DNA from: a virus
Taxonomy: Duplodnaviria; Heunggongvirae; Uroviricota; Caudoviricetes
DNA length: 18,756 nucleotides
Direction: 5' to 3' (one strand)
IMG/VR virus record: IMGVR_UViG_2660237951_000012
Coordinates: 1 to 18,756 of that record
Positions 889 to 17,250 of the stretch are shown here, piece after piece (the first letter of the stretch is position 1; each line of letters opens with the position of its first letter). The translations under genes and the position numbers were made by a program. The notes beneath the pieces are model-generated. The model had not been told where the DNA came from. It ran no database searches and saw nothing but the letters and a program-made list of their open reading frames with translations.

Positions 889-916
889 TAAAAAATAAGC
901 CCGTGTAAGGGAGATT
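889..916 (+). repeat. attL core of the P2-like prophage
   Basis: TAAAAAATAAGCCCGTGTAAGGGAGATT is repeated exactly at 17223..17250 in direct orientation. It matches the P2 att core as remembered and lies next to the int gene. Confidence 0.85.
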
Positions 917-995: not shown

Positions 996-2009
996 TTACT
1001 CTACTGTGGACACTATGTGGACACTCTCGGCCTCAGTACCACCTCTTAGCGGATTAAGAGAAATGGCGTCCTGAAGGTACTCTGGCGCAAAATGAGCGTA
1101 AACCATAGTTTGCTCAATCCGCGTGTGACCTAGTATCCGTTGTAGCGTGATAATACTTCCTCCATTAATCATGAAATGAGTGGCAAAGCTGTGCCTTAGT
1201 GCATGTGTGGCTTGCCCCATTGGCAAATCCGGTTTTATTGCTTTCATTGTTCGTCTGAAGCGAGGGTAATCAGCATCAGGGAATAAAAAACCTCGTTTGT
1301 TATCCGCGATCATTTTGGCAACAGCCTCTGAGATCGGGACGGTGCGTGGTTTGTTTGTTTTCGTTTTAACAAACGTGACGCGGTTATGGATGATATTTTC
1401 TGCTTTCAAACGAGCTGCTTCTCCCCAACGTGCTCCAGTACTCAGGCAAAGAATCGCAATCTTTTTGTTGTCGCCGTCAAGAGCAGCAAGCAGTAAGGCA
1501 ATTTCTTCCTGCGTGAGATAGCCTGTGTCTGGTTTTTCCTCCTTAAGCCTTTTTGTCCCTCTGATAGGGTGCTCACCAAAGAATAACTCCGCTTCAATCA
1601 GGGCTGTAAACATGCCGCTAATACATGTTAAATCACGATTGATACTCGAAGGTTTAATACCCTGACTTCTTCGGGTGGCGCAGTACTGGCTGATAAGCGA
1701 TTTCGTAATTTGAAATGCGCATGGGTCATTCGTTATTTTTGTGAAGATTTCAATTTTTCCAAGATTAGATTTCCCATGCTCTTCGTGTTTACCCTTTAAA
1801 TCCCACCAGATCTGTGTCAGCTCCGACAGACGTCGCTTGTCTGTTGGTTTTGATAGCCATTCTTTATTGTGGTGGTTGTACAACGTGTATTTCTCGAAAG
1901 CGACAGCTTCGCTTTTCTTATCAAACTTCCTACGGATGCGTTTTCCATTACGTCCAGTAGGGCGGATGTCCACTTCATATCGACCATCATCGAGTTTTTT
2001 GATTGCCAT
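996..2009 (-). CDS. int: P2-type tyrosine integrase
   Basis: 337-aa translation (MAIKKLDDGRYEVDIRPTGRNGKRIRRKF...HALRHSFATHFMINGGSIITLQRILGHTRIEQTMVYAHF) matches remembered P2 Int, with the R...HxxR...Y catalytic signature; adjacent to attL. Confidence 0.95.
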   Translation of the reverse strand: MAIKKLDDGRYEVDIRPTGRNGKRIRRKFDKKSEAVAFEKYTLYNHHNKEWLSKPTDKRRLSELTQIWWDLKGKHEEHGKSNLGKIEIFTKITNDPCAFQITKSLISQYCATRRSQGIKPSSINRDLTCISGMFTALIEAELFFGEHPIRGTKRLKEEKPDTGYLTQEEIALLLAALDGDNKKIAILCLSTGARWGEAARLKAENIIHNRVTFVKTKTNKPRTVPISEAVAKMIADNKRGFLFPDADYPRFRRTMKAIKPDLPMGQATHALRHSFATHFMINGGSIITLQRILGHTRIEQTMVYAHFAPEYLQDAISLNPLRGGTEAESVHIVSTVE

Positions 2010-2124: not shown

Positions 2125-2424
2125 TTAACCAGTCTTTTGACCGGAGTGGGGCGACGTTGTTTCGTTTTGCCCAAAGTGTGCGAGAGCGGGCGCAATTTGC
2201 CCGGACTCAGGAGCGATCTGATTGGTCATGAACCATAAAGTGTATTTGGTGAATTGTGGGGTCTGCAGGATGTTCATCATGACATCTGTTGGAGGTGTTG
2301 AACGACCACTTTCATAGTAACTCAGCGTGCCATACGGAACCCCTGTTAAATCAGCAAGTTGTTGTCTGCTCAAATACTCTGATTTTCGCATTAAGACTAT
2401 CTTCTCGCTTATCGTGTTTGACAT
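2125..2424 (-). CDS. C: P2 immunity repressor C
   Basis: 99 aa, MSNTISEKIVLMRKSEYLSRQQLADLTGVPYGTLSYYESG..., helix-turn-helix; divergent from cox as in P2. Confidence 0.9.
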   Translation of the reverse strand: MSNTISEKIVLMRKSEYLSRQQLADLTGVPYGTLSYYESGRSTPPTDVMMNILQTPQFTKYTLWFMTNQIAPESGQIAPALAHFGQNETTSPHSGQKTG

Positions 2425-2538: not shown

Positions 2539-2814
2539 ATGAGCAAGCAAGTAACACTCATGACTGATGCGATTCCTTATCAGGAGTTCGCAAAACTAAT
2601 AGGAAAATCGACAGGAGCGGTTCGTCGGATGATTGATAAAGGAAAGCTGCCTGTAATTGATATGACCGATCCACAATCAGCTTCAGGTCGTGCAGGTGAA
2701 TATTGGGTATACCTTCCGGCATGGAATAACGGACTAAAACTGGCTTATGAAAGCCGCCCTAAAGAGATTCGTGACGGCTGGTTGATGTGGTTGTGCCTTT
2801 ATGACAGTGGATGA
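2539..2814 (+). CDS. cox: P2 Cox (excision and lytic-switch regulator)
   Basis: 91 aa, MSKQVTLMTDAIPYQEFAKLIGKSTGAVRRMIDKGKLPVIDMTDPQSASGRAGEYWVYLPAWNNGLKLAYESRPKEIRDGW; the last codons may be altered by the adjacent rearrangement junction. Confidence 0.88.
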   Translation: MSKQVTLMTDAIPYQEFAKLIGKSTGAVRRMIDKGKLPVIDMTDPQSASGRAGEYWVYLPAWNNGLKLAYESRPKEIRDGWLMWLCLYDSG

Positions 2815-3040: not shown

Positions 3041-3359
3041 CCGAGCCTCCGGTCACGACGCGGTATTCGGTACAGAAAGACGCCTGCGTACTGTTGAGCA
3101 CGATGTCGGCCAGTGGTGCAGCCAGTTCGACACGCTGCACACCTTCCACATGCAAAGCGGCATAAATGGCAGACAGACGGATGTCGCGCCCCAGCCGGTG
3201 CTGTGCCGTGATATACGCTTCCAGCTTTTTCACAGCGGCAGCGCGGATGGGTTCGCTTTCGGGACCAGGGTAAAGGTAAAGCGTGGCGTTTATCTGGTAT
3301 TCAACGATGGCGGCAGACTGCACGGTCAGCCGGTCTTCAAAACGCTTAAACTCATTCAT
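3033..3359 (-). pseudogene. J: baseplate protein J, C-terminal portion (108-aa ORF)
   Basis: Sits immediately upstream of I with an ATGAGTGA start/stop overlap, as J does in P2; C-terminus ...TEYRVVTGGSDE. P2 J is about 302 aa, so only the C-terminal third is present. Identity rests on gene order plus partial recollection. Confidence 0.55.
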
Positions 3360-3740
3360 CCCACTTACTCACCAGTTCGCCATTGATATAAAGCTCCATC
3401 GGGCGGGTGACCGGCTCCGGCGGCGGAGGTTCCGGGATATTCTTCACATGCAGCGCACCGTCAACCTCACTGACCAGCGTGCGCTCGGTCAGCATCAGGC
3501 TGATGCTGATATCAAAGCTGCTGTCATTGTTGATGTCCGCATAAAACGTGAAGCCCTTTTTCTGGCCTTCGTCGGTGGTCATGATGTCGGGCTGATTTTC
3601 CCGCAGCCACGCCAGCACCGGCACGATGAGCAGGTCAAAATCACCGGTAAAGTCGGTCACAATGACATTGAGCGTGTAACGCTTTTCGAATGACAGCGAC
3701 GTCGCCAGTGTGGAGGCAATACTCCCGTTATCCGTCGTGG
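3352..3740 (-). pseudogene. C-terminal fragment of an unresolved P2-like late (virion morphogenesis) protein
   Basis: Protein-like sequence ...TDFTGDFDLLIVPVLAWLRENQPDIMTTDEGQKKGFTFYADINNDSSFDISISLMLTERTL...MELYINGELVSKWDE ending in an ATGAATGA overlap with the downstream ORF. The N-terminal 50 residues of the listed ORF are Gly/Ala-rich and look like antisense of the P fragment. Family not identified. Confidence 0.35.
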
Positions 3741-3963
3741 CTGTCTGGAATATGACGTCAGCGCCACCGACATCACCAGCTCGTTTATGGCTATCCGCAA
3801 GACCATGACCAGCAGCGGACGCAGTGCCACCTATGAGGCCAGCCGCAGCGAGGAAGCCAGCCACGCCGACCTCGCCTGGGCGACCATGCACGCCCTGTTA
3901 AATGAGCCACTCACCGCCGGTATCAGCACCCCGCTGACATCCACCATTCTGGAGTTTTACTGA
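3741..3963 (+). pseudogene. P: terminase large subunit P, C-terminal remnant
   Basis: The frame ending in TGATG overlap with the Q start codon translates to ...MAIRKTMTSSGRSATYEASRSEEASHADLAWATMHALLNEPLTAGISTPLTSTILEFY. P precedes Q in the P2 P-Q operon; only about 70 codons remain (an internal ATG at 3787 would give 58 aa). Confidence 0.4.
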
Positions 3964-4997
3964 TGAGCAAGAAAAAAGGGAAAACACCGCAACCTGCGGC
4001 AAAAAAAATGACCGCCAGCGCCCCGAAAATGGAGGCATTCACCTTTGGTGAGCCGGTGCCGGTACTCGACCGCCGTGACATTCTGGATTACGTCGAGTGC
4101 ATCAGTAACGGCAGATGGTATGAGCCACCGGTCAGCTTTACCGGTCTGGCAAAAAGCCTGCGTGCTGCCGTGCATCACAGCTCACCGATTTACGTCAAAC
4201 GCAATATTCTGGCCTCGACATTTATCCCGCATCCGTGGCTTTCCCAGCAGGATTTCAGCCGCTTTGTACTGGATTTTCTGGTGTTCGGTAATGCGTTTCT
4301 GGAAAAGCGTTACAGCACCACCGGTAAGGTCATCAGACTGGAAACCTCACCGGCAAAATATACCCGCCGTGGTGTGGAAGAGGATGTTTACTGGTGGGTG
4401 CCGTCCTTCAACGAGCCGACAGCCTTCACGCCCGGCTCCGTGTTTCACCTGCTGGAGCCGGATATTAATCAGGAGTTGTACGGCCTGCCGGAATATCTCA
4501 GCGCCCTTAATTCTGCCTGGCTGAATGAGTCGGCCACGCTGTTCCGCCGAAAGTATTACGAAAATGGCGCTCATGCCGGATACATTATGTACGTCACCGA
4601 TGCCGTGCAGGATCGCAACGATATCGAAATGCTTCGCGAAAACATGGTTAAGTCGAAAGGCCGCAACAACTTTAAAAATCTGTTTCTCTATGCCCCACAG
4701 GGGAAAGCCGACGGCATCAAAATTATCCCGCTCAGTGAAGTGGCAACGAAGGACGATTTTTTTAATATCAAAAAAGCCAGCGCCGCAGACCTGCTGGACG
4801 CACACCGCGTCCCCTTTCAGTTGATGGGCGGCAAGCCGGAGAATGTCGGGTCACTGGGTGATATTGAGAAAGTGGCAAAAGTATTCGTGCGAAATGAACT
4901 TACTCCACTCCAAAACCGGCTCAGTGAGGTCAATCATTGGGTAGGAGAATCAGTAATATGTTTTAAAAATTACAAACTTAGCGATGAGGATTATTAG
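3963..4997 (+). CDS. Q: portal protein Q
   Basis: 344 aa, MSKKKGKTPQPAAKKMTASAPKMEAFTFGEPVPVLDRRDILDYVECISNGRWYEPPVSF... matches remembered P2 gpQ at the same length. Orientation is inverted relative to int/C/cox. Confidence 0.92.
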   Translation: MSKKKGKTPQPAAKKMTASAPKMEAFTFGEPVPVLDRRDILDYVECISNGRWYEPPVSFTGLAKSLRAAVHHSSPIYVKRNILASTFIPHPWLSQQDFSRFVLDFLVFGNAFLEKRYSTTGKVIRLETSPAKYTRRGVEEDVYWWVPSFNEPTAFTPGSVFHLLEPDINQELYGLPEYLSALNSAWLNESATLFRRKYYENGAHAGYIMYVTDAVQDRNDIEMLRENMVKSKGRNNFKNLFLYAPQGKADGIKIIPLSEVATKDDFFNIKKASAADLLDAHRVPFQLMGGKPENVGSLGDIEKVAKVFVRNELTPLQNRLSEVNHWVGESVICFKNYKLSDEDY

Positions 4998-5029: not shown

Positions 5030-5030
5030 A

Positions 5031-7505
5031 TTATACCTTTGTAATATGCTTTAATATTTCAATCACTTTAGCAACATATGATTGACTTACGCCGCCATCT
5101 CCTTCATATTCAGATATTTTATTTAAAGACTGTTTACATGCTTCCATATATTTAACTTTATTACTCTTCGATAGCTTATTGTAATTTGACAAATGAAAAT
5201 CTTTATATCTCGAAAACTGCCTCAGAGAGTAAATATCCACATCCAAATTACTAAGAAGGTTGTTTGCCTTTTCGAAATTAGAGAATACAATATTACCATC
5301 TGGTATCTTTTCGCTTGAAAGCAAATATATTTTTGCTTGCTGGGTATCAATATTGTTCGTGTGATATTTTGCTCGCTTTTCAGCTAACGCATATGCCTGG
5401 TCAATATACTGTTGTGCTTTTGGGTAATTTTTGTAAGCAATAAAACACATTGCGTATTGCAACCAGAAGTGTGGGTTTGAATTTAGCCATGGAACTTCAA
5501 TTTTTAACTTTTCATAATATCGTTGTAGCGTTGATATTTTCATACTTTCAGGAAGCAGCTGCTCAACAAAAGAAAACCTGAGCATAGCTTTAAATATTCT
5601 ATCCTGTTCATAATCCTTAGAGTTTAATTGATTAAACCTTGATGCAATAGTAAGCATTCGCTCTATAATAACAGTAGGAGTGAAATTATTTTTTATTAGA
5701 TGTATGCAAAATAAACTAGACCCGTTAATGATCCTACCGCCATGGAAATTAAATATTGCCTTAAACGCACTGTTATTAGTAAAATCCGGATCATAAATCA
5801 AATCATTGCCTGCAAGATCAGATATAATCCCTCGATTCGTTTCAATGCCAAGTATTTGACAAAGACAAATTGAAATAATTGTGTTTTCATGACTCTTACT
5901 CTTTTTAATCCCGGTAATTAAATCACTTATCTTATTTTTTATTTGCGGCGACTCCAAAAGAGTAAGCAATGCAATTGAGAATTGACTGTTATTCTCATTA
6001 GCTAAATATCTTACCTTTTGCTCTACACTAAGCCCTGCATTATCTCCCCAAAGACCTAAGTTATCTATTATTTTTGAAAAATCTTTTAACTCTACCTCAT
6101 CTAACATATCAATATTTATTTCAGAATATTTGAATTTTATGCGCTCCAAATCATCTCTGTGATATTCATGATCTGCAACACGGGCAGTAGCAAGTATTAG
6201 TACATTTTCGTAAGCAGCTCTGCCCACATGTTCCATTAATTCAAGATTCTTCTCATACCCATCAAGTAATATGATATTTTTCATGGATGATTGTGCTATA
6301 TAGTCAATATCTGATATAAAATCACCATCTATATCGGCCACTGTATAAACATCATAACCACCGACGGATAAAACACTCCTTAGCTCTTTCAATAAGATGG
6401 TTTTTCCGTTTCCAAGCGCCGAATAAATAATTACATTTTTTGATTGTTCAATTAATGAAACAGCTTTATCAATTTCACTTCTTTTTACTAAAAACGGTAC
6501 CTTAGTATTACCAAGTATAAAATTATCAATATGATGATCATCCAAATCACCATACATCAACATTTTTTCAACCTCTTCATCTCTAATAGAACTTGATTCA
6601 TTGGTTATATCATGAAGAAAAAGTGACTGTAGCTTATACTCCTGCTCTTCTGATACTGAAGTAATATTATCTCTTATTCTATTGGCAAAACCACTCAAAC
6701 CTATAGGCAAAACGGTACCGAATTTTTCTAGAGTAAATTCTAATTCGATATCAGGATTGAGACTAGTTACAAAAAATGTTTTTTCTTTTAATTGAGGTAA
6801 GGTAGAAAGGATTTTTTTTATTTCAATATCATACATTGAATAACCGATAAAAACGATCGCGCCACACCTATCTAAATCTCTTTTAAAATAATAGAACCAT
6901 TCAGAGTCAGTAAAAGAGTCAGGGCTTGAATAAGATGAATCAGAAAGTTTGAATGAATCATCAAGCGTTTCAGTAGAAATATTATTAATTGAACCATTAA
7001 GATGAATACATAAATTCTTGCGCTTATAATATTCCTTTGTTTTATGCTCAAGATCTATAGTTTCGAATTTATTACCGGATGATTCAGCTGCGATCTCAAA
7101 ACATCGGTCATAATTAGTTGTGTAACAACGTTTCCATGGTAGCGATGCGATTATATTTTGGTTCTCCGATGTTGTTTTTATAGAATAATTATAAATTAAT
7201 AGTTCTATTAATTTTAATGACGAGTTTTTTGCTAAGTAATAATCAGAAGAAAAGCGTAGGTTATCATTTTTAGGTATTGAACAAAGACCACATAATATAT
7301 GAGATAGCTCTATTGAAGAAGAAGGATTAGTATCATTAATATTCGTAGCTTCTTTAGAGAAACCCGCCCCCAAAAACAACATTGCCTTTCCAGAACAAAT
7401 ATTTGTAACTAGTTTAGCATAATCAATAGTTTGCTTGCTAATAATCAACTCTGTAAAATTAATATCCATTATAAAACCTATCATATAAATTAAGTGGGAT
7501 TTCAT
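5031..7505 (-). CDS. SIR2-like domain / P-loop NTPase / TPR-like repeat protein, candidate anti-phage defence
   Basis: The N-terminus carries the SIR2-type motif set LFLGAGFS, TTNYD, IHLNGS and VFIGYSMYD. The middle has a Walker A-like YSALGNGKT, Walker B-like NIILLDGYE and LILATAR. The C-terminus is helical and repeat-like. The listed ORF starts on TTG at 7538; ATG at 7505 (or 7469) is more likely. Strongly AT-rich by eye. Confidence 0.8.
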   Translation of the reverse strand: MKSHLIYMIGFIMDINFTELIISKQTIDYAKLVTNICSGKAMLFLGAGFSKEATNINDTNPSSSIELSHILCGLCSIPKNDNLRFSSDYYLAKNSSLKLIELLIYNYSIKTTSENQNIIASLPWKRCYTTNYDRCFEIAAESSGNKFETIDLEHKTKEYYKRKNLCIHLNGSINNISTETLDDSFKLSDSSYSSPDSFTDSEWFYYFKRDLDRCGAIVFIGYSMYDIEIKKILSTLPQLKEKTFFVTSLNPDIELEFTLEKFGTVLPIGLSGFANRIRDNITSVSEEQEYKLQSLFLHDITNESSSIRDEEVEKMLMYGDLDDHHIDNFILGNTKVPFLVKRSEIDKAVSLIEQSKNVIIYSALGNGKTILLKELRSVLSVGGYDVYTVADIDGDFISDIDYIAQSSMKNIILLDGYEKNLELMEHVGRAAYENVLILATARVADHEYHRDDLERIKFKYSEINIDMLDEVELKDFSKIIDNLGLWGDNAGLSVEQKVRYLANENNSQFSIALLTLLESPQIKNKISDLITGIKKSKSHENTIISICLCQILGIETNRGIISDLAGNDLIYDPDFTNNSAFKAIFNFHGGRIINGSSLFCIHLIKNNFTPTVIIERMLTIASRFNQLNSKDYEQDRIFKAMLRFSFVEQLLPESMKISTLQRYYEKLKIEVPWLNSNPHFWLQYAMCFIAYKNYPKAQQYIDQAYALAEKRAKYHTNNIDTQQAKIYLLSSEKIPDGNIVFSNFEKANNLLSNLDVDIYSLRQFSRYKDFHLSNYNKLSKSNKVKYMEACKQSLNKISEYEGDGGVSQSYVAKVIEILKHITKV

Positions 7506-7566
7506 AGTTAGTTCATTTCTGAACACAAAGCAAGTCAATAGCCATAATAAAATCTTTAACGCGCAG

Positions 7567-7585
7567 TGCTTTCCCCGCCTCGCCC
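7567..7585 (-). other. P2 cos site (19-nt cohesive end)
   Basis: Minus strand reads GGCGAGGCGGGGAAAGCAC, a 19/19 match to the P2 cohesive end as remembered; orientation agrees with the inverted segment. Confidence 0.8.
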
Positions 7586-8154
7586 GCCCGCTTCATGTGG
7601 CGGTTTTAATGCAGTTGCATAGATACTATGGATCCGCACCAGCTCTGACCGCGAGCAGCTGGAACGGGCATCCCCGACGCATGCAAAAACATTCACTTGT
7701 TGCATGCACGGCTTATTTAATGACAAATCAACTTAAGCGTCACCGCAGCTCCCACAAAAAAACGTAACACCATGATTTTAGTGATATTTATGACTTTTTT
7801 AATTGCTTATTTAAGTCCGCCATATTGAAACCGTGCATTTTTTAGCCACCAATAACTTTAAAAAATTTACATTGCTTTCAATACCTTATCATCCGTAGTC
7901 CCTGCTTTTTACTTTGAGCTATATCAAAAAAAGCTCAAACATCCTTGATGCAAAACCAGTATTACACAACATAAAATGCAACCAGAAACAACGACATACT
8001 ATATGTTGTGTTGTTCAGGCTCTCTGTTCGGTGATATGCCAGATCACTTTGCGTTTAAACAGAGCATTATTTCAGGGCAAGACTTCGCTAAATAGTAACT
8101 CCGCCTCAGAAGCGCATATATCGGCGGAAATTGCCCTCTGCTTACAGGAGGAGA

Positions 8155-8268
8155 TATGAAGAAGTGCTATTACTGCATTCTCGTTCTGGCCCTCTTTGGC
8201 TATCCATATGGTAGTCCAAGTGGTTTGTCAGTAAACGTCAGTAATATCCATGTAAGTATTATTCTTTA
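8155..8268 (+). CDS. hypothetical 37-aa hydrophobic peptide
   Basis: ATG preceded by strong AGGAGG Shine-Dalgarno at 7-nt spacing; MKKCYYCILVLALFGYPYGSPSGLSVNVSNIHVSIIL; followed by a hairpin with T-run. No recognisable homology. Confidence 0.35.
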
Positions 8269-8282
8269 GTATGCTTCAAACA

Positions 8283-8311
8283 AAAAAACCACCTGCCAGG
8301 GTGGTTTTTTT
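8283..8311 (+). terminator. putative intrinsic terminator
   Basis: AAAAAAACCACCTGCCAGGGTGGTTTTTTT: CCACC/GGTGG stem followed by a T7 run. Confidence 0.5.
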
Positions 8312-8571
8312 GCGCCTGTCATCATTCCGATGAAAGACTAGCAAGACTTCGCTCGAGATGAATTATGCTTCGACAAAAGGTCACTCGCAATGGTTTTATT
8401 AGCCGAAATAGATGCTCTTTTATGACTCGAATCAAATAGCTGCCTTAAATTACATGCTAGCGATTCAATACAATTTAGCCTTCTACTTCAGCATGCTATT
8501 GCTCCTCATCTGCATTAGAGGCGCTTCGCATAATCCATTCAAAGGCATATAAAATCACGCTGCATTTTTAC

Positions 8572-10848
8572 TCAAATGGGTAACAAAAATCCAGGCCACT
8601 CATCAGCGACCTGATAATTGAAATATTTCCCGTAATAATTTACGGTCGCGCCACGCGCCAGCGCCTCAAGCTCCCATCGCTGCGGCCTGATACCGTTCTG
8701 AGCAAGGTCAACGCGGATACGGGTAATTTGCATTCTTTCCGACCGGGTCAGTCTGGCCGATGGTGCAATTTCATGTGGTTTTAACGGGCTTCCGTTTCTT
8801 TGCTGACGATTTGGTGTTCTCAGGTCGTGTTTTAATGCCCCCCTGAGCGCCCTCACGACCTCCGTGTCATTCCATTCGATAACACCGTCATCAACCAGAT
8901 TAAGCACGGCTGCGGCGTGTTCAGAAGGTGTGGGAGCCGGTAACGAAGTATCACCACCGGTGAGCTTTCCACAGTTATTGACAGGACTCCGAGGCGCGGC
9001 GATGCCGCTTTTTAAAGTCAAAGGCTCAACGACCGGCACTTTCGGAACAATGCGCCAGTCCGTCGTTCTGGTGATATGAATATGACGCGCGCCGAGATGC
9101 GGCGCGTAAATGCCGACCACTCTCTCGACTTCTTCCTCGTACTCGTTAACGTCATCCGACGGGCTACGGGCGACCCTGACAGTCTGACAATCGCGCGGGA
9201 CATTTGCCCCGCCCTGCGCGCTGATATACAACGCAAAATCACCACTGTCTGCAGCGGCGCGTGCAGCCTCGACGCGCTCGTCAAACTCATCAGCAATGCT
9301 GACGCCGCGAGGCAATTTGCGTAGTTCACGGTAAGCCCCCATTGTCGGCAGACCAACCGTTTTAAATTGCGGAATGCGCCACGTTGACGCCCATGCGGTA
9401 ACAGCAGCAGCTGTGTCTTTCAGCGGCCTACCGGTATCATTATCGAGCTGACCATCCAGTGCATAGCCGTCGATGTTTTTTGAGATGTATTTCGCGATAT
9501 ATCCCGCAGCACCGCCCCGGTTAAGGTGTTTTGCCTGAAAACGGTTTCGCGCGGCTCCTCTTTCGTCGCCATCCTCTTTGAGCGCATAGCGACGCATGAT
9601 TTCAATAATCTGGTTACGCTGGCGTGGATTACAAAAAAGCATCATATGCCAGTGCGGCGTTCCGTCGTGGTGTGGTTCAACAACACGCAAACCGTAGGCC
9701 TGTAAATCATTATCCTTGAATGCCGTGCGCATCAGGCTCCAGATACGGCAGAGATAACGCTGCGCATCCTTTGGATTAAATGCCTCATCGTTCCAGCCGT
9801 GATTTAGCTGGACGGTTTTACTTTCGCCTTTTCTGACCTGACGTGTCGGGTGATACTTTGACGGCGCGGTCAGCGTGATAAACATCCCCACATCACCCTC
9901 TGCGGCGGCGTAACGCTCAATACCGGCGATGGTGTTCATCAGCTCCATCCGGCGAATTTCTGGATTAGAAATACTGCCCATCACCTTACTGATAAGGTCG
10001 ATGCGCTCGCCGGTTTCCTTGTTTTCAAGGTCACACGATTTAAGAAATTCCAGATTTGCCTGGCGGCGCGCACGCACATCACGAATGGCATGTTTACTGG
10101 CATAAGGAGAACGGTCTTTATTGACCTCCCCGACAGCAATCAGTAACGCCTCATGCCAGCGCATACGCTGGCCTTTAAGCTGATGAGTCCACCACTCATC
10201 GTTAAACAGGCGGGCAATGGCAGAATATGCCTGCCTCGTGGTCATCTGCCCTTTACGGTATTTTTTCCAGTAAAGCGGGGAAATATTGAAAGCACGTGCA
10301 GCGCCAGCAACATGACCATACAGATGTGCCTGCGCCTCATCCGTAAACAGCGATTCTTTTTCGCCATGCGCATCCACCCAGGCATCGCAGAGTTCCTCAT
10401 ACATCATGAAAAGCTGCGATGAGATACGGGCAGCAAACTTTTTCAGCTCCTTGTCATTCATTCCCGGCAGGCGCGCATAGTGGTCACGCTCTGCCAGAAA
10501 CAGCAACGACGCGTCGGTGTTCATTTCATGGCGCTGATTCACACGCTCAATGCGCGGCCATAAACGACGCTGAAAAGTGGATGTGAGGAAATAAAACCCG
10601 TGCACCGGGCTTTTATTGCGCCGGATGTAGTCATAGCGTGAAGTAAACAGCGAGCGCAAAAAGTAAGGCAGGCGGTTAATCGTGGATAAAACACCTTGCA
10701 CCTGACGCATCTCGTCACGTGTAAGGGGTCTTTCGCGCCCGACAGCCTCGCGTGGCGCGTTCCATGCATAAGCACCGGTAAACGCCTTACCGGTGCCTGC
10801 GGCAAATGCTGACGGAGGGACAAAACGCCCGGAGGCTTTAACGGCCAT
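8572..10848 (-). CDS. A: replication initiation endonuclease A (rolling-circle initiator)
   Basis: Matches remembered P2 gpA across its length (MAVKASGRFVPPSAFAAGTGK...HWHMMLFCNPRQ...YIAKYISKNIDGY). The listed ORF begins 14 codons upstream at 10890; the internal ATG at 10848 corresponds to the P2 start. Confidence 0.9.
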   Translation of the reverse strand: MAVKASGRFVPPSAFAAGTGKAFTGAYAWNAPREAVGRERPLTRDEMRQVQGVLSTINRLPYFLRSLFTSRYDYIRRNKSPVHGFYFLTSTFQRRLWPRIERVNQRHEMNTDASLLFLAERDHYARLPGMNDKELKKFAARISSQLFMMYEELCDAWVDAHGEKESLFTDEAQAHLYGHVAGAARAFNISPLYWKKYRKGQMTTRQAYSAIARLFNDEWWTHQLKGQRMRWHEALLIAVGEVNKDRSPYASKHAIRDVRARRQANLEFLKSCDLENKETGERIDLISKVMGSISNPEIRRMELMNTIAGIERYAAAEGDVGMFITLTAPSKYHPTRQVRKGESKTVQLNHGWNDEAFNPKDAQRYLCRIWSLMRTAFKDNDLQAYGLRVVEPHHDGTPHWHMMLFCNPRQRNQIIEIMRRYALKEDGDERGAARNRFQAKHLNRGGAAGYIAKYISKNIDGYALDGQLDNDTGRPLKDTAAAVTAWASTWRIPQFKTVGLPTMGAYRELRKLPRGVSIADEFDERVEAARAAADSGDFALYISAQGGANVPRDCQTVRVARSPSDDVNEYEEEVERVVGIYAPHLGARHIHITRTTDWRIVPKVPVVEPLTLKSGIAAPRSPVNNCGKLTGGDTSLPAPTPSEHAAAVLNLVDDGVIEWNDTEVVRALRGALKHDLRTPNRQQRNGSPLKPHEIAPSARLTRSERMQITRIRVDLAQNGIRPQRWELEALARGATVNYYGKYFNYQVADEWPGFLLPI

Positions 10849-11113
10849 ATGAGCCAAAAGCCTCTGAACAACGCTTGCTGAGTTGCTCAACCTGCGCGTT
10901 TAAATCAGCAAAAGACTTTGCGCTTCCGGTCAGAATATCGTGATGCATCAGGCCGGAAACGAGCTGGCTTAATTTCGGGTAATAACCAACCACCGCCAGC
11001 CATTCCTGACCGGCGTTTTTACCGCTTTCCGCTCTCTTTTTCTCGTGGAGAATAAACTGAAAGCTGTCACTGGTAACGACATAACGTTCGCCAATTTCAA
11101 TACGAATACTCAT
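10838..11113 (-). CDS. small P2 early-region protein upstream of A (orf83-like)
   Basis: 91 aa with GGAG Shine-Dalgarno 6 nt upstream of the ATG; its stop overlaps the A start. Position matches the small ORFs that precede A in P2; function unknown. Confidence 0.5.
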   Translation of the reverse strand: MSIRIEIGERYVVTSDSFQFILHEKKRAESGKNAGQEWLAVVGYYPKLSQLVSGLMHHDILTGSAKSFADLNAQVEQLSKRCSEAFGSYGR

Positions 11114-11188
11114 GCCGTTCTCCGGTAATGTTTGTTTTTTGCTTCAAAGACTGACTGGCAGGAAACACAACGCGTGGCTGACGGATAA

Positions 11189-12784
11189 GCCGCACGACGG
11201 GCACAGGACGCCACCACAGCACGAAAAGGCCTTGTCCAGCTCAGTAGTGCCACCAACAGCACGTCTGAAACGCTCGCTGCAACACCAAAAGCGGTAAAAG
11301 CAGCATATGACCTTGCTAACGGGAAATATACCGCACAGGACGCCACCACAGCGCGAAAAGGCCTTGTCCAGCTCAGTAGCGCCACCAACAGCGATTCTGA
11401 AACGCTTGCGGCAACACCAAAGGCGGTTAAGACAGCGTATGACCTTGCTAACGGGAAATACACTGCACAGGATGCCACTACAGCGCGAAAAGGTCTTGTC
11501 CAGCTCAGTAGCGCCACCAACAGTGATTCTGAAACGCTGGCCGCAACACCAAAAGCGGTGAGGTCTGCCTATGACAATGCTGAAAAACGTCTTCAGAAAG
11601 ATCAGAACGGTGCGGATATTCCGGGAAAGGATACCTTCACGAAAAATATCGGTGCCTGTCGTGCTTATAGCGGCGCTTTGAGCACTGAAGCCGGAAACTG
11701 GACAACCGCGCAGTTTATTGACTGGCTAGAGTCTCAGGGAGCCTTTAATCATCCCTACTGGATGTGCAAGTGTTCCTGGTCATACGGTAATAACAAAATT
11801 ATTACCGATACTGACTGTGGGACTATTCATCTTGCAGGTTGCGTGATTGAGGTTATGGGCGTTAAAGCAGCAATGACCATTCGTGTGACCACTCCGAGTA
11901 CATCAAGCGGTGGTGGTACCACCAGTGCGCAATTCACGTATATCAATCACGGAGCTGATTATGCGCCGGGCTGGCGACGCGACTACAATACGAAAAATAA
12001 GCAACCGGCTTTTGCATTAGGGAAAACAGGAAATACGGTTGCAAATAATAAAGCGGTAGGATGGAACTGGGACAGTGGTGCTTATTGTGCACAGGATGGC
12101 GGAGCATCAAAAATGGTGCTGCATTTTTACACGGGTGAGGGAAGTTGTCCGGCAATGCAGTTTCTTGTGGATTATAAAAACAGGGGGATTTTTTACAGGT
12201 CGGCACGTGATGGGTATGGATTTGAGGCTGACTGGTCAGAGTTTTATACAACATCACGAAAGCCAACACCTGCGGATATTCTTGCTCTGGCATTATCAGG
12301 CGGAAGCATGTCAGGCAGCATAAAATTTATCAATGATGCCTTCCTGATTTGGGAAAGAAACACTGACTGGGCGAAAATTGGATTTAAAAATGATTCAGAT
12401 GCTGATTCTGACTCATACATGTGGTTTGAAACTGGTGATAATGGCAATGAATATTTTAAATGGCGCATCAGGTCTGGCAGCACAACAAAAGATCTGATGA
12501 CGCTTAAGTCTGATGCACTACGGGTTACCGGGCAGGTGATACCATCAAATTTCAGCAATTTTGACTCCCGCTATGTCCGGGATCTCCGACTTGGTGGTGC
12601 AGCCACATACAAACCTGCGAACAATGGCATGACATGGACACATCAGGCACCGTCCGGGTGTGTATATACCGGCATTATTGTTCAGGATACCGGCTCAAAC
12701 TCTGCCGATAACATTGGTGGCGTATATTACAGACCGGTTCAGAAATACATTAACGGGACATGGTACAACGTGGCGCAGGTATAA
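11189..12784 (+). pseudogene. H: tail fibre protein H, 5'-truncated
   Basis: The frame is open from the stop at 11186 with no ATG, GTG or TTG before the GTG at 11558. It encodes the H repeat region, the conserved WERNTDWAKIGFKNDSDADSDSYMWFETGDNGNEYFKWR block and the C-terminus RPVQKYINGTWYNVAQV. The roughly 200 N-terminal residues of P2 H are absent. Confidence 0.8.
11201..11575 (+). repeat. tandem 132-bp repeats (about 2.8 copies) in the tail-fibre H gene
   Basis: The unit encoding AYDLANGKYTAQDATTARKGLVQLSSATNS(D/T)SETLAATPKAVKT recurs with period 132 nt (TATGACCTTGCTAACGGGAAATA at 11306 and 11438). It generates the spurious ORFs 11110..11520(-) and 11307..11561(+). Confidence 0.85.
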
Positions 12785-12787
12785 TTT

Positions 12788-13315
12788 ATGCAGCATTTGA
12801 TAAATATAACGGCAGGTAATCCAAAAACGGTTGAACAATATCAATTGACAAAGGACTTTGATGTTGTCTGGTTTTTTACAGAAGATGGTAAGAACTGGTA
12901 CGAAGAACAAAAGTATTTTGCTGATGACACGATAAAAATAGCGTACGACAAAGATAATATTATCCGCTATGTAGAAAAGGATGTGACAGCTATCAGACCG
13001 GATGGATTAAGTGTTGTTGAAGTGCCGGATATTACTGCTAACCGACGGGCGGACATTTCAGGGAACTGGATGTTTAAGGACGGCAAAGTGATTAAACGCA
13101 TTTATACGGCAGAGGAATTACAACAGCAGGCAGAAATTCGGAAAGCCAGACTTCTTGCAGATGCTGAATCCGTGATTTTGCCGCTGGAGCGCGCTGTCAG
13201 GCTGAACATGGCAACAGAGGAGGAGCGCACACGGCTGGAGGCTTGGGAACGCTACAGCGTTTTGGTCAGTCGTGTGGATCCTGCAAATCCTGAATGGCCG
13301 GAAATGCCGCAATAA
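12788..13315 (+). CDS. G: tail fibre assembly protein G
   Basis: 175 aa, [40 protein letters not shown]...[14 protein letters not shown] matches remembered P2 gpG. Confidence 0.9.
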
Positions 13316-13348
13316 GTTGTATAAGCTCTGGTGTGAGATTACATATCT

Positions 13349-13392
13349 ATGGCACAGAGTAAAGCCTAATCTGGCAGTCCGCTCTGTGCCAT
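13349..13392. other. 11-bp perfect inverted repeat (ATGGCACAGAG / CTCTGTGCCAT) with 22-nt loop
   Basis: Seen directly, just downstream of G at the boundary of the AT-rich cargo island. Confidence 0.4.
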
Positions 13393-13510
13393 TACCGGAC
13401 ATACTGAGCAGAAGGCTAAAAAGGACGCTTTCAGGACATATAGCAAGGGAGCAAGGATGAAAGAATTAACCAAGTATATTTAATGTTTCAATCATGATAG
13501 TTTCTGAATT

Positions 13511-13535: not shown

Positions 13536-13814
13536 TTACTTGTTCCACTCAGTCAGAATTTGGTTACTAACTTCATCTGAGAGATTGTACCAATAAGCTG
13601 AGTTATTGGTTGCGTCTACAACAATAAGCTTATCATCACTATCCATGACCGCCCTCACAATTTTGGCTGCATCCTCGGCAGAGTAACTACAGTTAACATA
13701 CCAGTTCGATTCAGTTGTTAAAGCCCAATTTCCTAAAGATTTAATTGCATCATACACAGCCGCATAATCTTTCGTTTTAATGAGGTCGTAAGTAATAAAT
13801 AAATTATTAGCCAT
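13536..13814 (-). CDS. hypothetical 92-aa protein (Z/fun-position cargo)
   Basis: ATG with GGGAG Shine-Dalgarno 8 nt upstream; MANNLFITYDLIKTKDYAAVYDAIKSLGNWALTTESNWYV...; no homology recognised. Confidence 0.6.
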   Translation of the reverse strand: MANNLFITYDLIKTKDYAAVYDAIKSLGNWALTTESNWYVNCSYSAEDAAKIVRAVMDSDDKLIVVDATNNSAYWYNLSDEVSNQILTEWNK

Positions 13815-13840
13815 AAATCATCTCCCAAAGGACAAAGAAA

Positions 13841-13866
13841 AAAGCGCCTAGAAAGGCGCTCATATA
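13841..13866 (-). terminator. intrinsic terminator between the DUF3606-like gene and the 92-aa gene
   Basis: Minus strand reads AGCGCC-tttcta-GGCGCT followed by TTTTTTCTTT, lying between the stop at 13867 and the next Shine-Dalgarno. Confidence 0.6.
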
Positions 13867-14046
13867 TTAATGGTCTTTAAGCCATGCCTGTACTTTCTTA
13901 GCCGAATGACCTACAGCCTGTACGGCTTGAACAAGTTTGGCCTCGCTAACTCCAAACTTTTCAGCCCAATCACGTCTCTCGTAATCCTGTTTGATACTTA
14001 TTAAATCATTGTCAGGGGTACCGATTTTGGTCTTATCATCAGCCAT
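13867..14046 (-). CDS. DUF3606-like small protein
   Basis: MADDKTKIGTPDNDLISIKQDYERRDWAEKFGVSEAKLVQAVQAVGHSAKKVQAWLKDH with GAGGA Shine-Dalgarno upstream of this ATG; the listed ORF extends to 14085. The motif pattern resembles the DUF3606 family from memory. Confidence 0.55.
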   Translation of the reverse strand: MADDKTKIGTPDNDLISIKQDYERRDWAEKFGVSEAKLVQAVQAVGHSAKKVQAWLKDH

Positions 14047-14537
14047 TTTACTGATTCCTCGTGATACAGGCTTATACCTGCCCATTAGTTATATGGCTCC
14101 CGTGCTGCTTCGTAAACGTTCAATAATCAAACAATTGACACTGATCATAAAACCAGTTATAGGATTTGACTCTAGCTTGGATATATGATGATGCCACCCC
14201 CTTTATATTGTTGTCGGTAACTCACAGACATTGAACTCATGCTGGTGAGTGAAAGGCTACATAAACGCCCAACATTTAAACTGCCCTCAGCAGCGTTCGC
14301 GGAGCAATATACAGGCTTCGTATTCAATCCTTGCCCTACGAGAAACCCTAGCCGTTGCCTCGTTTTCAAGTGTCAGGAAGTTCTTTGTCAGACCTCATAC
14401 AGTCTTGGGCTGGGTGAGGTGCATGGGGGAAGTTGAAGCCTTAACTGTTGAGGTAAATCGAACCATAAGTGTGCAATTTTTCAAGCCCGGCGCTATTTTA
14501 GTATTGAAAACAATTAGTACGCCCCCAAGGACAACTC

Positions 14538-15230: not shown

Positions 15231-15360
15231 TACAATTGACCTGCTCCCCATAAATTAGCATACCACAATCTCAGGTCCGCTCTTCGCTCAAAACAGGCTG
15301 TCAGATTTGACAGAATTTTGGTTACGTAATTTGTCAGTTGGAAACAGAGAGAGTACAAAT

Positions 15361-15395
15361 CAAGGCAGGCAAGCTGATTGCCCGCCTTTTCTTTA
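15361..15395 (+). terminator. putative intrinsic terminator after the 230-aa gene
   Basis: AAGGCAGGC...GCCCGCCTT imperfect stem (one mismatch) followed by TTTTCTTTATCTGTTGTTT. Confidence 0.5.
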
Positions 15396-15490
15396 TCTGT
15401 TGTTTCATCCACTGACCAGCCAGGTCAAATAGCGTCTCATGCACTGCCCAACAGAAAATAGTTGCACCCATTAACCACGGAGTTAAACGG

Positions 15491-15658
15491 ATGAGTGACT
15501 ATCATCATGGCGTGCAGGTGCTGGAGATTAACGACGGCACCCGCGTGGATGAATCACTGGCCGCGCTTTATGGCGATATCGGTAAACAGGCGGAGTCGCT
15601 CATCGGTAAGGCTGGCAGTATGGCGACCAGATTCACGGGTATGACGGGGGCGGGATAA
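15491..15658 (+). pseudogene. in-frame fusion remnant: tail sheath FI N-terminus joined to tail protein U C-terminus
   Basis: The 55-aa ORF starts MSDYHHGVQVLEIN (remembered FI start) and ends ...SMATRFTGMTGAG with a TAATG overlap onto D, which is the natural U/D junction. Implies deletion of FI, FII, E, T and most of U. Confidence 0.55.
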
Positions 15659-16821
15659 TGCTGGATGCGCTGACATTTGATGCAGGCAGTACGCTGACGC
15701 CGGATTACATGCTGATGCTCGACAGCAGGGATATTACCGGCAATATCAGCGACCGTCTGATGAGCATGACCCTGACGGATAACCGGGGCTTTGAGGCTGA
15801 CCAGCTTGATATTGAACTGAACGATGCCGACGGGCAGGTCGGGCTGCCGGTTCGTGGCGCTGTCCTGACGGTGTATATCGGCTGGAAAGGTTTTGCCCTG
15901 GTATGCAAAGGGAAATTTACCGTTGATGAGGTTGAACACCGGGGCGCACCGGATGTAGTCACCATCCGCGCCCGGAGTGCAGATTTTCGCGGGACGCTCA
16001 ATTCCCGCCGGGAAGGCTCCTGGCATGACACCACGCTCGGTGCGATTGTTAAGGCGATAGCCACCCGTAACAGGCTGGAAGCCAGTGTCGCTCCGTCACT
16101 GGCCGGAATTAAAATCCCGCACATCGACCAGTCGCAGGAGTCTGATGCGAAATTTCTGACCCGTCTTGCAGAACGCAACGGCGGTGAGGTGTCGGTAAAA
16201 ATGGGAAAACTGCTGTTTCTCAAAGCGGGGCAGGGGGTGACGGCCAGCGGTAAAAAAATCCCGCAGATTACCATCACCCGCAGCGATGGTGACCGTCACC
16301 ATTTTGCGATTGCTGACCGTGGAGCCTACACCGGCGTAACGGCAAAGTGGCTACACACCAAAGACCCGAAGCCGCAAAAGCAGAAGGTAAAACTGAAACG
16401 CAAAAAGAAAGAGAAACACCTGCGCGCACTGGAGCACCCGAAAGCGAAACCGGTCACGCAGAAGAAAGCGCCAAAAGTACCGGAAGCGCGCGAAGGTGAA
16501 TACATGGCCGGTGAGGCTGACAATGTTTTTGCCCTGACCACGGTATATGCCACAAAAGCGCAGGCCATGCGCGCCGCTCAGGCGAAGTGGGATAAACTGC
16601 AACGGGGTGTGGCGGAGTTCTCCATCAGCCTGGCTACCGGTCGGGCAGATATTTACACGGAAACACCGGTTAAAGTGTCAGGCTTTAAGCGCGTCATAGA
16701 CGAGCAGGACTGGACAATCACTAAGGTGACACATTTTCTTAATAATAGCGGCTTCACGACGTCCTTAGATCTTGAGGTCAGGCTTTCTGATGTGGAGTAC
16801 GAAACAGAAGATGATGAGTGA
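15658..16821 (+). CDS. D: tail protein D
   Basis: 387 aa, MLDALTFDAGSTLTPDYMLMLDSRDITGNISDRLMSMTLTDNRGFEADQLDIELNDADGQ... matches remembered P2 gpD, including the Lys-rich internal segment. Confidence 0.92.
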   Translation: MLDALTFDAGSTLTPDYMLMLDSRDITGNISDRLMSMTLTDNRGFEADQLDIELNDADGQVGLPVRGAVLTVYIGWKGFALVCKGKFTVDEVEHRGAPDVVTIRARSADFRGTLNSRREGSWHDTTLGAIVKAIATRNRLEASVAPSLAGIKIPHIDQSQESDAKFLTRLAERNGGEVSVKMGKLLFLKAGQGVTASGKKIPQITITRSDGDRHHFAIADRGAYTGVTAKWLHTKDPKPQKQKVKLKRKKKEKHLRALEHPKAKPVTQKKAPKVPEAREGEYMAGEADNVFALTTVYATKAQAMRAAQAKWDKLQRGVAEFSISLATGRADIYTETPVKVSGFKRVIDEQDWTITKVTHFLNNSGFTTSLDLEVRLSDVEYETEDDE

Positions 16822-16902
16822 TGTTTTTATTTTATCTGTTTGTTTTATAAGGATAAATTAACTAAAATAACACCATCAACAAAACCGGAAGAGGTGCTCG
16901 CG

Positions 16903-17121
16903 ATGTTTCATTGTCCTTTATGCCAGCATGCCGCACATGCGCGTACAAGCCGCTATATCACTGACACGACAAAAGAGCGTTATCACCAGTGCCAGAACGT
17001 GAATTGCAGCGCCACGTTCATCACCTATGAGTCGGTACAGAGATACATCGTGAAGCCGGGAGAAGTCCACGCCGTAAGGCCGCACCCGTTGCCGTCAGGG
17101 CAGCAAATTATGTGGATGTAA
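16903..17121 (+). CDS. ogr: Ogr zinc-finger late transcription activator
   Basis: 72 aa from the internal ATG: MFHCPLCQHAAHARTSRYITDTTKERYHQCQNVNCSATFITYESVQRYIVKPGE..., with CxxC...CxxxxC motif. The listed ORF start at 16840 is an upstream extension. Confidence 0.93.
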   Translation: MFHCPLCQHAAHARTSRYITDTTKERYHQCQNVNCSATFITYESVQRYIVKPGEVHAVRPHPLPSGQQIMWM

Positions 17122-17132
17122 TTACAAACAGA

Positions 17133-17222: not shown

Positions 17223-17250
17223 TAAAAAATAAGCCCGTGTAAGGGAGATT
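17223..17250 (+). repeat. attR core of the P2-like prophage
   Basis: Exact copy of 889..916; overlaps the 3' terminator end of cyaR on the opposite strand. Confidence 0.85.

What the first reader, a model, noticed from the sequence alone, without database searches (positions are those of the whole stretch)
11189..12784. Tail-fibre H gene truncated inside its 132-bp tandem repeats and carrying a divergent Cys-containing central domain
H lacks its start and N-terminal domain, and the breakpoint lies inside the 132-bp repeat array, suggesting repeat-mediated recombination. Downstream of the repeats the sequence diverges from remembered P2 H (NHPYWMCKCSWSYGNNKIITDTDCGTIHLAGCVIE...) before rejoining the conserved C-terminus, as expected for a swapped receptor-binding region. 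G is intact directly downstream.
Basis: partly seen in the sequence, partly recalled or inferred. Interest (0 to 1): 0.4.

Follow-up and report, generated by a model that had tools for sequence, protein, structure and literature searches.

The report
Broken tail-fibre gene in decayed P2 prophage
This is the 3' three-quarters of a phage P2-type tail-fibre gene, left without a start codon or promoter when a P2 prophage in an E. coli chromosome was scrambled and half deleted; it is ordinary prophage decay and the fibre variant is already known from intact phages.

Summary
The tail-fibre (H) frame is open from 11189 to 12784. A TAA closes it just upstream, and there is no start codon before a GTG at 11558 that lacks a ribosome-binding site. 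The break lies inside a 132-bp repeat array (11201-11559, 2.7 copies). An intact H in E. coli SW071614 (736 aa) is 100% identical over the last 527 residues, so codons 1-209 are missing. G (12788-13315) is intact.

The proposed cause, repeat-mediated recombination, is not supported. The sequence joined to the repeat is the antisense of P2 orf82, and the two share only 3 bp (GCA). This is one of five short-microhomology junctions in a 16.4-kb remnant of a 33.6-kb P2 prophage. The remnant sits between perfect att cores at the yegS/cyaR-yegQ site. Its central 8.4 kb (P'-Q-SIR2-A-orf83-orf82') is inverted.

The divergent Cys-containing block does differ from canonical P2 H. It is 74% identical to the phage Mu S' fibre (PDB 8JU3). 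It occurs at 97-100% identity in intact H genes of phage fiAA91-ss, isolate P2DC1 and several E. coli prophages.

Verdict: a recent pseudogene carrying a known mosaic H allele. Interest is low.

The parts
890..916 (.). attL core of the prophage remnant
   Evidence: 27/27 identical to the P2 attP core (P2 24356-24382) and to the copy at 17224-17250.
996..2009 (-). P2 integrase gene, intact
   Evidence: phrog_1 integrase, E 2.6e-85. Window 889-2792 is 99.5% identical to P2 24355-26258.
2125..2424 (-). P2 C immunity repressor gene, intact (99 aa)
   Evidence: phrog_147, full length. 99.5% nucleotide identity to P2.
2539..2814 (+). cox', with its last 7 codons replaced. Junction J1 lies at 2792/2793.
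   Evidence: Homology to P2 cox ends at 2792. From 2793 the sequence is inverted P2 gene I. This exact fusion protein is on record only in contig LLYC01000087.1.
2793..3335 (-). Inverted fragment of baseplate genes I' and J'
   Evidence: 99.1% identical to P2 12440-11898 and to L001 16001-16543.
3323..3733 (-). Inverted fragment of tail genes S' and R'. Junction J2 (~3323-3335) and junction J3 (~3726-3733) bound it.
   Evidence: 97.3% identical to P2 8951-8541.
3726..4997 (+). 3' end of terminase gene P, plus the intact portal gene Q (3963-4997), inverted relative to the prophage flanks
   Evidence: 97% identical to P2 1458-282. phrog_68 portal, E 9.5e-175.
5031..7538 (-). SIR2-domain cargo gene (835-aa ORF; called as 824 aa), between the Q terminator and cos
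   Evidence: Pfam SIR2_2, E 1.1e-13, with weak nSTAND hits. Weak PADLOC ThsA hits. Annotated 'SIR2 family protein' in related prophages.
7562..7613 (-). cos region (right-end side of P2)
   Evidence: 94-96% identical to P2 33546-33593.
8572..11113 (-). Replication genes A (8572-10848/10890) and orf83 (DUF5405; 10838-11113), inverted
   Evidence: phrog_91 and phrog_154. 96.9% identical to P2 30294-27674.
11114..11203 (-). 3' fragment of P2 orf82 (DksA/TraR-like zinc-finger gene). This is the left partner of the junction that truncates H.
   Evidence: Homology to P2 runs to P2 27674, inside orf82 (27548-27772).
11201..11203 (.). Junction J4: 3-bp microhomology (GCA) shared by orf82-antisense and the H repeat
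   Evidence: Three-way alignment of the window, L001 and L003.
11201..11559 (+). 132-bp tandem repeat array, 2.7 copies, encoding three Phage_fiber_2 motifs
11189..12784 (+). 'H: 5'-truncated tail-fibre pseudogene. Codons 210-736 of the intact allele are preceded by 4 foreign codons.
11573..12286 (+). Mu S'-type domain (fragment residues 129-366), the 'Cys-containing divergent block'
   Evidence: phmmer against PDB: 8JU3_A, E 2.2e-140. 176/238 residues identical, with 4 Cys positions shared with Mu S'.
12290..12541 (+). Block shared with P2 H and Mu S (NTDWAKIGFKND...), a Gp34_trimer-like domain
   Evidence: 55/84 identical to 5YVQ_A. 69% identical to P2 H 391-471. Pfam PF21446.
12560..12781 (+). 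C-terminal domain ending in the conserved ...RPVQKYINGTWYNVAQV
12788..13315 (+). G, tail-fibre assembly chaperone gene, intact (175 aa)
   Evidence: phrog_136, full length, E 1.9e-78. Pfam Caudo_TAP. 100% nucleotide identity to SW071614 (H26).
15276..15546 (+). PF late-promoter region and first codons of FI. Junction J5 (9-bp microhomology CACCCGCGT, 15538-15546) fuses it to the 3' end of U.
   Evidence: 80% identical to P2 17433-17707. Junction alignment.
15658..17121 (+). D (15658-16821) and ogr (16903-17121), intact
   Evidence: Pfam Phage_GPD. Ogr_Delta gene call. 97.2% identical to P2 22671-24382.
17224..17250 (.). attR core
   Evidence: 27/27 identical to the P2 attP core and to 890-916.

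Best explanation
The feature is a recently created pseudogene. It is the 3' 72% (codons 210-736) of a P2-family tail-fibre gene H, with its intact chaperone gene G, stranded in a defective P2 prophage at the E. coli yegS / cyaR-yegQ attachment site.

The prophage lost about half of its genome through at least five illegitimate joins, each with only 0-9 bp of microhomology. Two of them, J1 in cox and J4 in H, are the ends of an 8.4-kb inversion that carries P'-Q-SIR2-cos-A-orf83-orf82'. J4 happens to fall in the second copy of the 132-bp fibre repeat, and it fuses the repeat to the antisense strand of orf82.

Shown:
- H has no start codon and no N-terminal baseplate-attachment domain.
- The V-W-J-I-H-G operon promoter PV is gone.
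- No sigma-70-like promoter or ribosome-binding site stands in front of the remaining frame.

Inferred: the fragment is not expressed, and G is intact only because the event is recent. The DNA from 11201 to 13400 is 100% identical to an intact prophage.

The 'divergent Cys-containing domain' is a normal feature of this H allele. It is a Mu S'-type module recombined into a P2 H backbone. This is the long-known mosaicism of tail-fibre genes, and it has nothing to do with the truncation.
For: Frame and starts.

Repeat array.

Intact counterpart: 100% identical over 527 aa, with one more repeat.

Junction partner and 3-bp microhomology.

Four further junctions with 0-9 bp microhomology.

Prophage boundaries: perfect 27-bp att cores at 890-916 and 17224-17250.

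Inverted orientation of 2793-11203 relative to an intact prophage at the same chromosomal site (L001) and to P2.

No inverted repeats at J1/J4. No IS or invertase among the ORFs examined or the source contig's gene calls.

No promoter-like site on the + strand upstream of the frame.

Allele present intact elsewhere: fiAA91-ss 97.7%, P2DC1 99.1%, and E. coli SW071614, VG12A2 and S40 at 99.6-100%.

Mu S' relationship.

The same contig was seen in 4 samples, and the cox' fusion and the 408-aa call occur only there.
Against: Expression was not measured. Read-through transcription, or weak initiation at GTG 11558 or at internal ATGs, cannot be excluded from sequence alone.

The order and number of events (one complex event or successive ones) cannot be reconstructed.

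The source is a draft assembly contig, so the structure has not been confirmed here with reads.
Confidence: 0.88

Rival explanations
1. Repeat-mediated recombination: the 132-bp tandem repeats promoted the rearrangement that removed the 5' part of H.
For: The breakpoint lies within the array. Repeat copy number varies between 2 and 4 among intact H genes, so the array does recombine with itself.
Against: Recombination between repeat copies changes copy number but cannot remove the N-terminus or attach orf82-antisense DNA.

The partner sequence shares only GCA with the repeat.

The four other junctions of the same remnant lie in non-repetitive genes and look the same.
Confidence: 0.04
2. Assembly artefact: a short-read assembler mis-joined contigs at the repeat, and H is intact in the real genome.
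For: The source is a draft assembly (LLYC01000087.1, 33.9-kb contig). Tandem repeats are classic mis-assembly sites. No complete E. coli genome carries the junction.
Against: The two sides of J4 share only 3 bp, too little for a k-mer graph mis-join.

The reciprocal end of the inversion (J1) and three further deletion junctions lie in unique sequence.

The missing H 5' part and I 3' part are absent from the window.

The contig is recorded in 4 samples.
Confidence: 0.04
3. Programmed, invertase-driven inversion of a tail-fibre segment (Gin/Cin/Pin type), caught in an orientation that disconnects the constant and variable parts of H.
For: The H allele carries a Mu S'-type domain. A related prophage at the same chromosomal site (L001) has a recombinase next to alternative fibre ends. 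A segment next to 'H is indeed inverted.
Against: None of the window ORFs searched, nor any gene called on the source contig over this stretch, matched a recombinase or invertase other than the tyrosine integrase.

The inverted segment is 8.4 kb of replication and packaging genes, not alternative fibre ends.

No inverted-repeat crossover sites flank it.

In intact relatives of this allele H is a single fixed ORF.
Confidence: 0.01
4. Retained functional module. The 'H-G cassette is kept because it does something. It could be a homologous-recombination donor that lets incoming P2-like phages change receptor specificity. Alternatively, a 408-aa receptor-binding fragment made from GTG 11558 and folded by G could block the receptor.
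For: The whole receptor-binding part and the chaperone gene are undamaged. A gene caller does call a 408-aa ORF. Flanking homology exists for recombination: the repeats upstream and G/PF downstream.
Against: 100% identity to an intact allele means the fragment is too young to show selection.

There is no promoter or Shine-Dalgarno sequence.

The arrangement is confined to one contig lineage.

The neighbouring tail genes were destroyed at random.
Confidence: 0.05

Closest known systems
Intact gpH of P2-like phages carrying the same allele (phage fiAA91-ss H, NC_022750; isolate P2DC1, NC_070905; E. coli SW071614 WP_124326427.1)
   Same: 97.7-100% amino-acid identity over the whole retained part. 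The domain order is the same (fibre repeats, Mu S'-type domain, P2 H/Mu S block, C-terminal domain), and the same G gene follows.
   Different: The window copy lacks codons 1-209 (the N-terminal baseplate-attachment domain and the first repeat), its start codon, the upstream I gene and the PV operon promoter.
Canonical phage P2 gpH (NC_001895, 669 aa)
   Same: Shares the repeat motif (83% over 89 aa), an internal block (69% over 81 aa) and the C-terminal end (48% over 88 aa), followed by G.
   Different: P2 has 2 repeats. Its centre is unrelated to the Mu S'-type domain, and it has an extra ~120-aa segment before the C-terminus that is absent here.
Phage Mu tail fibre S' (G(-) form), PDB 8JU3, and S (G(+)), PDB 5YVQ
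   Same: Fragment residues 129-366 are 74% identical to the S' chain. Residues 368-451 are 65% identical to S.
   Different: In Mu these are alternative ends switched by Gin inversion. Here both modules sit in tandem in one fixed ORF on a P2 backbone, with no invertase present.
Cryptic P2 remnant of E. coli K-12 at the same site (ogrK with a D fragment, next to cyaR/yegQ). This comparison is from my own knowledge and was not tested here.
   Same: A P2-family prophage at the yegS/yegQ attachment site, reduced by deletion, that keeps ogr and D sequences next to attR.
   Different: The window remnant is much larger (16.4 kb). It still has int, C, Q, A, a SIR2 gene, 'H and G, and it contains an inversion.

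Membership tests
P2-family tail fibre gpH (functional gene) | Complete ORF with a start codon and the conserved N-terminal domain (P2 H residues 1-~165) that attaches the fibre to the baseplate | tested here: not met
   The frame opens at 11189 after a TAA. There is no start before GTG 11558. Residues 1-209 of the intact allele are absent, and no P2 12734-13360 homology exists anywhere in the window.
P2-family tail fibre gpH (functional gene) | Phage_fiber_2 (PF03406) repeats | tested here: met
   Three stretches, E 2.9e-59. The 132-bp array has 2.7 copies.
P2-family tail fibre gpH (functional gene) | Conserved C-terminal end, followed directly by the chaperone gene G | tested here: met
   ...RPVQKYINGTWYNVAQV is aligned with P2 H. 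G lies at 12788-13315, full length.
P2-family tail fibre gpH (functional gene) | Position in the V-W-J-I-H-G late operon, behind the Ogr-dependent promoter PV | tested here: not met
   V, W and PV are deleted. The I'/J' fragments lie 8 kb away in the opposite orientation. The upstream neighbour is antisense orf82/orf83/A.
Mu S'-type receptor-binding module | Sequence homology to the solved Mu S' fibre | tested here: met
   8JU3_A, E 2.2e-140; 176/238 residues identical.
Mu S'-type receptor-binding module | Same receptor specificity as Mu G(-) | not testable with these tools
   Needs adsorption or host-range experiments. 26% of the residues differ.
Invertible tail-fibre segment (Gin/Cin/Pin systems) | Serine invertase gene, plus inverted crossover sites flanking alternative fibre 3' ends | tested here: not met
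   None of the ORFs searched, nor any gene called on the source contig here, matched an invertase. No inverted repeats pair 2792 with 11203.
Tail-fibre assembly chaperone (P2 G / Caudo_TAP) | Full-length match to the family profile and an intact ORF | tested here: met
   phrog_136 positions 2-177 of 178, E 1.9e-78. PF02413 positions 2-131 of 131.
Defective P2 prophage | Bounded by duplicated att cores and carries P2 genes, but lacks essential morphogenetic genes | tested here: met
   27-bp att cores at 890-916 and 17224-17250. int/C/cox are 99.5% identical to P2. O, N, M, L, X, Y, K, V, W, FI (apart from its first ~56 bp), FII, E and T are absent; most of P, R, S, J and U is absent; I lacks its 3' part and H its 5' part.

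The most novel reading that the evidence does not exclude
The promoterless 'H-G cassette could act as a standing donor of a Mu S'-type receptor-binding module for heteroimmune P2-like phages that infect this strain. Recombination would run through the fibre repeats on one side and G/PF on the other, so that a 'dead' prophage fragment reshapes the host range of live phages. Alternatively, a 408-aa fibre fragment could be made and mask the receptor.
Probability: 0.05. Interest if true: 0.35.

Novelty: already known. Interest (0 to 1): 0.1.

Why it matters
It matters little beyond annotation. This gene should be labelled a 5'-truncated tail-fibre pseudogene inside a scrambled P2 remnant, not a 408-aa 'tail fibre protein'.

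The locus is a clean, datable example of prophage decay by several microhomology joins, including an inversion. The immunity repressor, integrase, ogr, D and a SIR2 defence-type gene remain intact.

The H allele shows once more how P2-family fibres are assembled from modules shared with phage Mu. That is established knowledge.

Tried and rejected
- Full-length H in another frame: none. The other two frames across the repeats give only short ORFs (61 and 84 aa) caused by the repeats.
- The missing H 5' end elsewhere in the window: no homology to P2 12734-13360.
- The J4 junction in other genomes:
  - 0 of 5,426 complete E. coli genomes cover it.
  - An exact 30-mer scan of one genome per species found 0 matches.
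  - Exact-protein look-ups of the cox' fusion and of the 408-aa call found only the source contig.
- Inverted repeats or crossover sites at the inversion ends: none.
- Promoter, terminator and Shine-Dalgarno support for an internal start: none.
- Rfam over the whole window: only CyaR, nothing near H.
- Literature: two searches for papers on the K-12 P2 remnant and on the Mu S' structure returned nothing directly usable. Two further searches failed on syntax.
- Not run, because a solved structure at 74% identity and intact alleles at 100% identity already answer the question: structure prediction, large protein-database searches and metagenome scans.

Full report
**1. The observation**

Translating the three forward frames of 11111-12786 shows one frame open from 11189 to the stop at 12782-12784. 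That frame opens just after the stop TAA at 11186-11188.

A codon scan finds no ATG, GTG or TTG between 11189 and 11557. The first candidate is GTG 11558, preceded by CACCAAAAGCG, which is not a Shine-Dalgarno sequence. The first ATG is at 11762.

Tandem Repeats Finder reports a single array in the whole window: 11201-11559, period 132, 2.7 copies, 90% matches. The copies are 88-93% identical to one another. They encode three Pfam Phage_fiber_2 motifs, E 2.9e-59.

G (12788-13315, 175 aa) matches the tail-fibre assembly families over its full length. The description is therefore accurate.

**2. What the window is**

BLAST against complete E. coli genomes, and then against canonical P2 (NC_001895), shows a P2 prophage at the yegS / cyaR-yegQ site. 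Two perfect copies of the 27-bp P2 att core bound it, at 890-916 and 17224-17250. Only 16.4 kb of a 33.6-kb genome remains.

| Window | P2 coordinates | Orientation | Content | Identity |
|---|---|---|---|---|
| 889-2792 | 24355-26258 | direct | att, int, C, most of cox | 99.5% |
| 2793-3335 | 12440-11898 | inverted | I'/J' | 99.1% |
| 3323-3733 | 8951-8541 | inverted | S'/R' | 97.3% |
| 3726-4902 | 1458-282 | inverted | P' 3' end, Q | 97.0% |
| 7566-7613 | 33593-33546 | inverted | cos | 95.8% |
| 8588-11207 | 30294-27674 | inverted | A, orf83, part of orf82 | 96.9% |
| from 11201 | H from nt 13361 (codon 210) | direct | 'H, then G | 76-94% (H pieces); G 77% |
| 15276-15546 | 17433-17707 | direct | PF promoter, first codons of FI | 80.0% |
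| 15538-17250 | 22671-24382 | direct | U' 3' end, D, ogr, att | 97.2% |

An intact relative at the same chromosomal site, E. coli M172-1 (locus L001), has the normal order yegS-int-C-cox-...-A-SIR2-Q-P-O...I-H-G...D-ogr-yegQ. Everything between 2793 and 11203 in the window is therefore inverted relative to the prophage ends, and it carries internal deletions.

**3. The junctions**

Base-level three-way alignments give five novel joints.

| Junction | Position | What is joined | Microhomology |
|---|---|---|---|
| J1 | 2792/2793 | cox' to inverted I' | about 0-1 bp |
| J2 | ~3323-3335 | J' to S' | about 6 bp (CGGTCA) |
| J3 | ~3726-3733 | R' to P' | about 4 bp (ATCC) |
| J4 | 11201-11203 | orf82-antisense to the H repeat | 3 bp (GCA) |
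| J5 | 15538-15546 | FI' to 'U | 9 bp (CACCCGCGT) |

BLAST's apparent 7-bp overlap at J4 needs a 1-bp gap.

J1 and J4 are the two ends of the inversion. At both ends sequence was also lost: orf78 through part of orf82 on one side, and I 3' plus H 5' on the other.

No inverted repeats pair the two ends. Of the ORFs searched and the genes called on the source contig, only the tyrosine integrase is a recombinase, and no IS was found. The pattern is illegitimate, microhomology-type joining, the ordinary route of prophage decay.

**4. Is the break 'inside the repeats', and is it 'repeat-mediated'?**

The closest intact H is in E. coli SW071614 (locus L003, 736 aa). It is 100% identical to the window from its residue 210 to its end. 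The DNA is 100% identical from 11201 to 13400. That gene has 3.3 DNA copies of the repeat and four protein motifs, against three motifs in the window. The break is therefore inside the array, about 0.6 copy in.

Among ten intact P2-family H proteins, the motif count is:
- 2 in P2;
- 3 in fiAA91-ss and Yersinia phage P37;
- 4 in the other seven.

The array does change copy number by its own recombination. That process cannot explain this truncation. The sequence attached to the repeat is unrelated DNA (orf82 antisense) sharing three bases, and four sister junctions in the same remnant lie in non-repetitive genes. The position in the repeat is best read as coincidence.

**5. The 'divergent Cys-containing central domain'**

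Canonical P2 H aligns with the fragment over three regions only:
- the repeats (83% over 89 aa);
- an internal block, NTDWAKIGFKND...KDLMTLK (69% over 81 aa);
- the C-terminal end (48% over 88 aa).

The region between the repeats and the internal block is a different module. A sequence search of the PDB places it. Fragment residues 129-366 match the phage Mu S' fibre chain 8JU3_A at E 2.2e-140, with 176 of 238 residues identical. Residues 368-451 match Mu S (5YVQ), with 55 of 84 identical.

Four of the Cys positions are shared with Mu S'. Three are specific to this allele, and Mu S' has one that this allele lacks.

The whole allele occurs intact at these identities:

| Source | Identity to the retained part |
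|---|---|
| Phage fiAA91-ss | 97.7% |
| Isolate P2DC1 (NC_070905) | 99.1% |
| E. coli 20220828076 | 99.1% |
| E. coli S40 | 99.6% |
| E. coli VG12A2 | 99.8% |
| E. coli SW071614 | 100% |

It is a known, circulating allele and it is unrelated to the truncation. That P2 H, Mu S/S' and P1 S share modules is established knowledge; I state this from my own knowledge of the tail-fibre literature.

**6. Can the fragment be expressed?**

- The V-W-J-I-H-G promoter PV and genes V and W are deleted.
- The upstream neighbour is the antisense strand of orf82-orf83-A.
- A consensus scan finds no sigma-70-like site on the + strand between 10800 and 12425.
- No start codon with a ribosome-binding site exists.
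- A gene caller nevertheless calls a 408-aa protein from GTG 11558. I regard that call as an artefact of ORF length.

Expression was not measured, so silence is inferred, not shown.

**7. Provenance and reality**

The cox' fusion protein and the 408-aa call are on record only in NCBI assembly GCA_001484085.1, contig LLYC01000087.1 (33.9 kb), which was seen in four samples.

No complete E. coli genome, and no species-representative genome, has the J4 junction.

Misassembly is unlikely. J4 has only 3 bp of overlap, its reciprocal partner J1 is present, and three further junctions lie in unique sequence.

**8. Verdict**

The feature is a young pseudogene of a known mosaic H allele in a scrambled, half-deleted P2 prophage. 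Nothing about it is unusual for a specialist.

The only mildly novel reading left open is that the intact receptor-binding part plus G serve as a recombination donor or an expressed fragment. I give this about 5%.

Noticed in passing
window 5031-7538 (-): A low-GC (about 30-34%), 835-aa SIR2-domain protein with weak STAND-NTPase and ThsA-like matches sits between the Q terminator and cos. It is intact although half of the prophage is gone. The same gene is present in related prophages (L001, L002). It is probably an anti-phage cargo gene of the P2 hotspot.
   Followed up: partly
window 2793-11203: The whole block P'-Q-SIR2-cos-A-orf83-orf82', plus the I'/J' and S'/R' fragments, is inverted relative to the prophage ends. 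The ends of the block show 0-3 bp of microhomology and no inverted repeats. An independent, non-inverted decayed prophage occupies the same chromosomal site in E. coli EC2001 (L002).
   Followed up: yes
window 15276-16821: Deletion J5 (9-bp microhomology) fuses the Ogr-dependent PF promoter and the first ~56 bp of FI to the last ~120 bp of U. This leaves intact D and ogr behind a late promoter. Whether FI'-'U is in frame, or D is expressed, was not checked.
   Followed up: no
window 17227-17312 (-): The CyaR/RyeE sRNA gene (Rfam RF00112, 100.7 bits) overlaps the attR core (17224-17250). The prophage att duplication therefore supplies one end of this host sRNA gene.
   Followed up: no
window 7600-8570: About 1 kb between cos and the end of gene A has no ORF longer than 81 aa and no Rfam match. 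It is 93-94% conserved in Salmonella phage MET_P1_103_31 and in isolate P2DC1, where part of it is annotated as a hypothetical protein. P2 orf91, tin and old are absent here.
   Followed up: partly
window 13536-15230: The cargo between G and the PF promoter (the P2 Z/fun position) consists of a 92-aa hypothetical protein (-), a DUF3606 protein (-) and a 230-aa protein (+). The 230-aa protein has no Pfam or PADLOC match, and its counterpart in SW071614 is annotated as 198 aa.
   Followed up: partly
window 2125-2424 (-) and 996-2009 (-): The immunity repressor C and the integrase are intact and 99.5% identical at the DNA level to phage P2 itself. The remnant may still confer P2 immunity, although cox has lost its last 7 codons.
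   Followed up: no
window 11573-12541 (H fragment residues 129-451): This H allele carries a Mu S'-type module and a Mu S/P2 H-type module in tandem in one fixed ORF. In Mu the S and S' variable parts are alternatives switched by inversion.
   Followed up: partly
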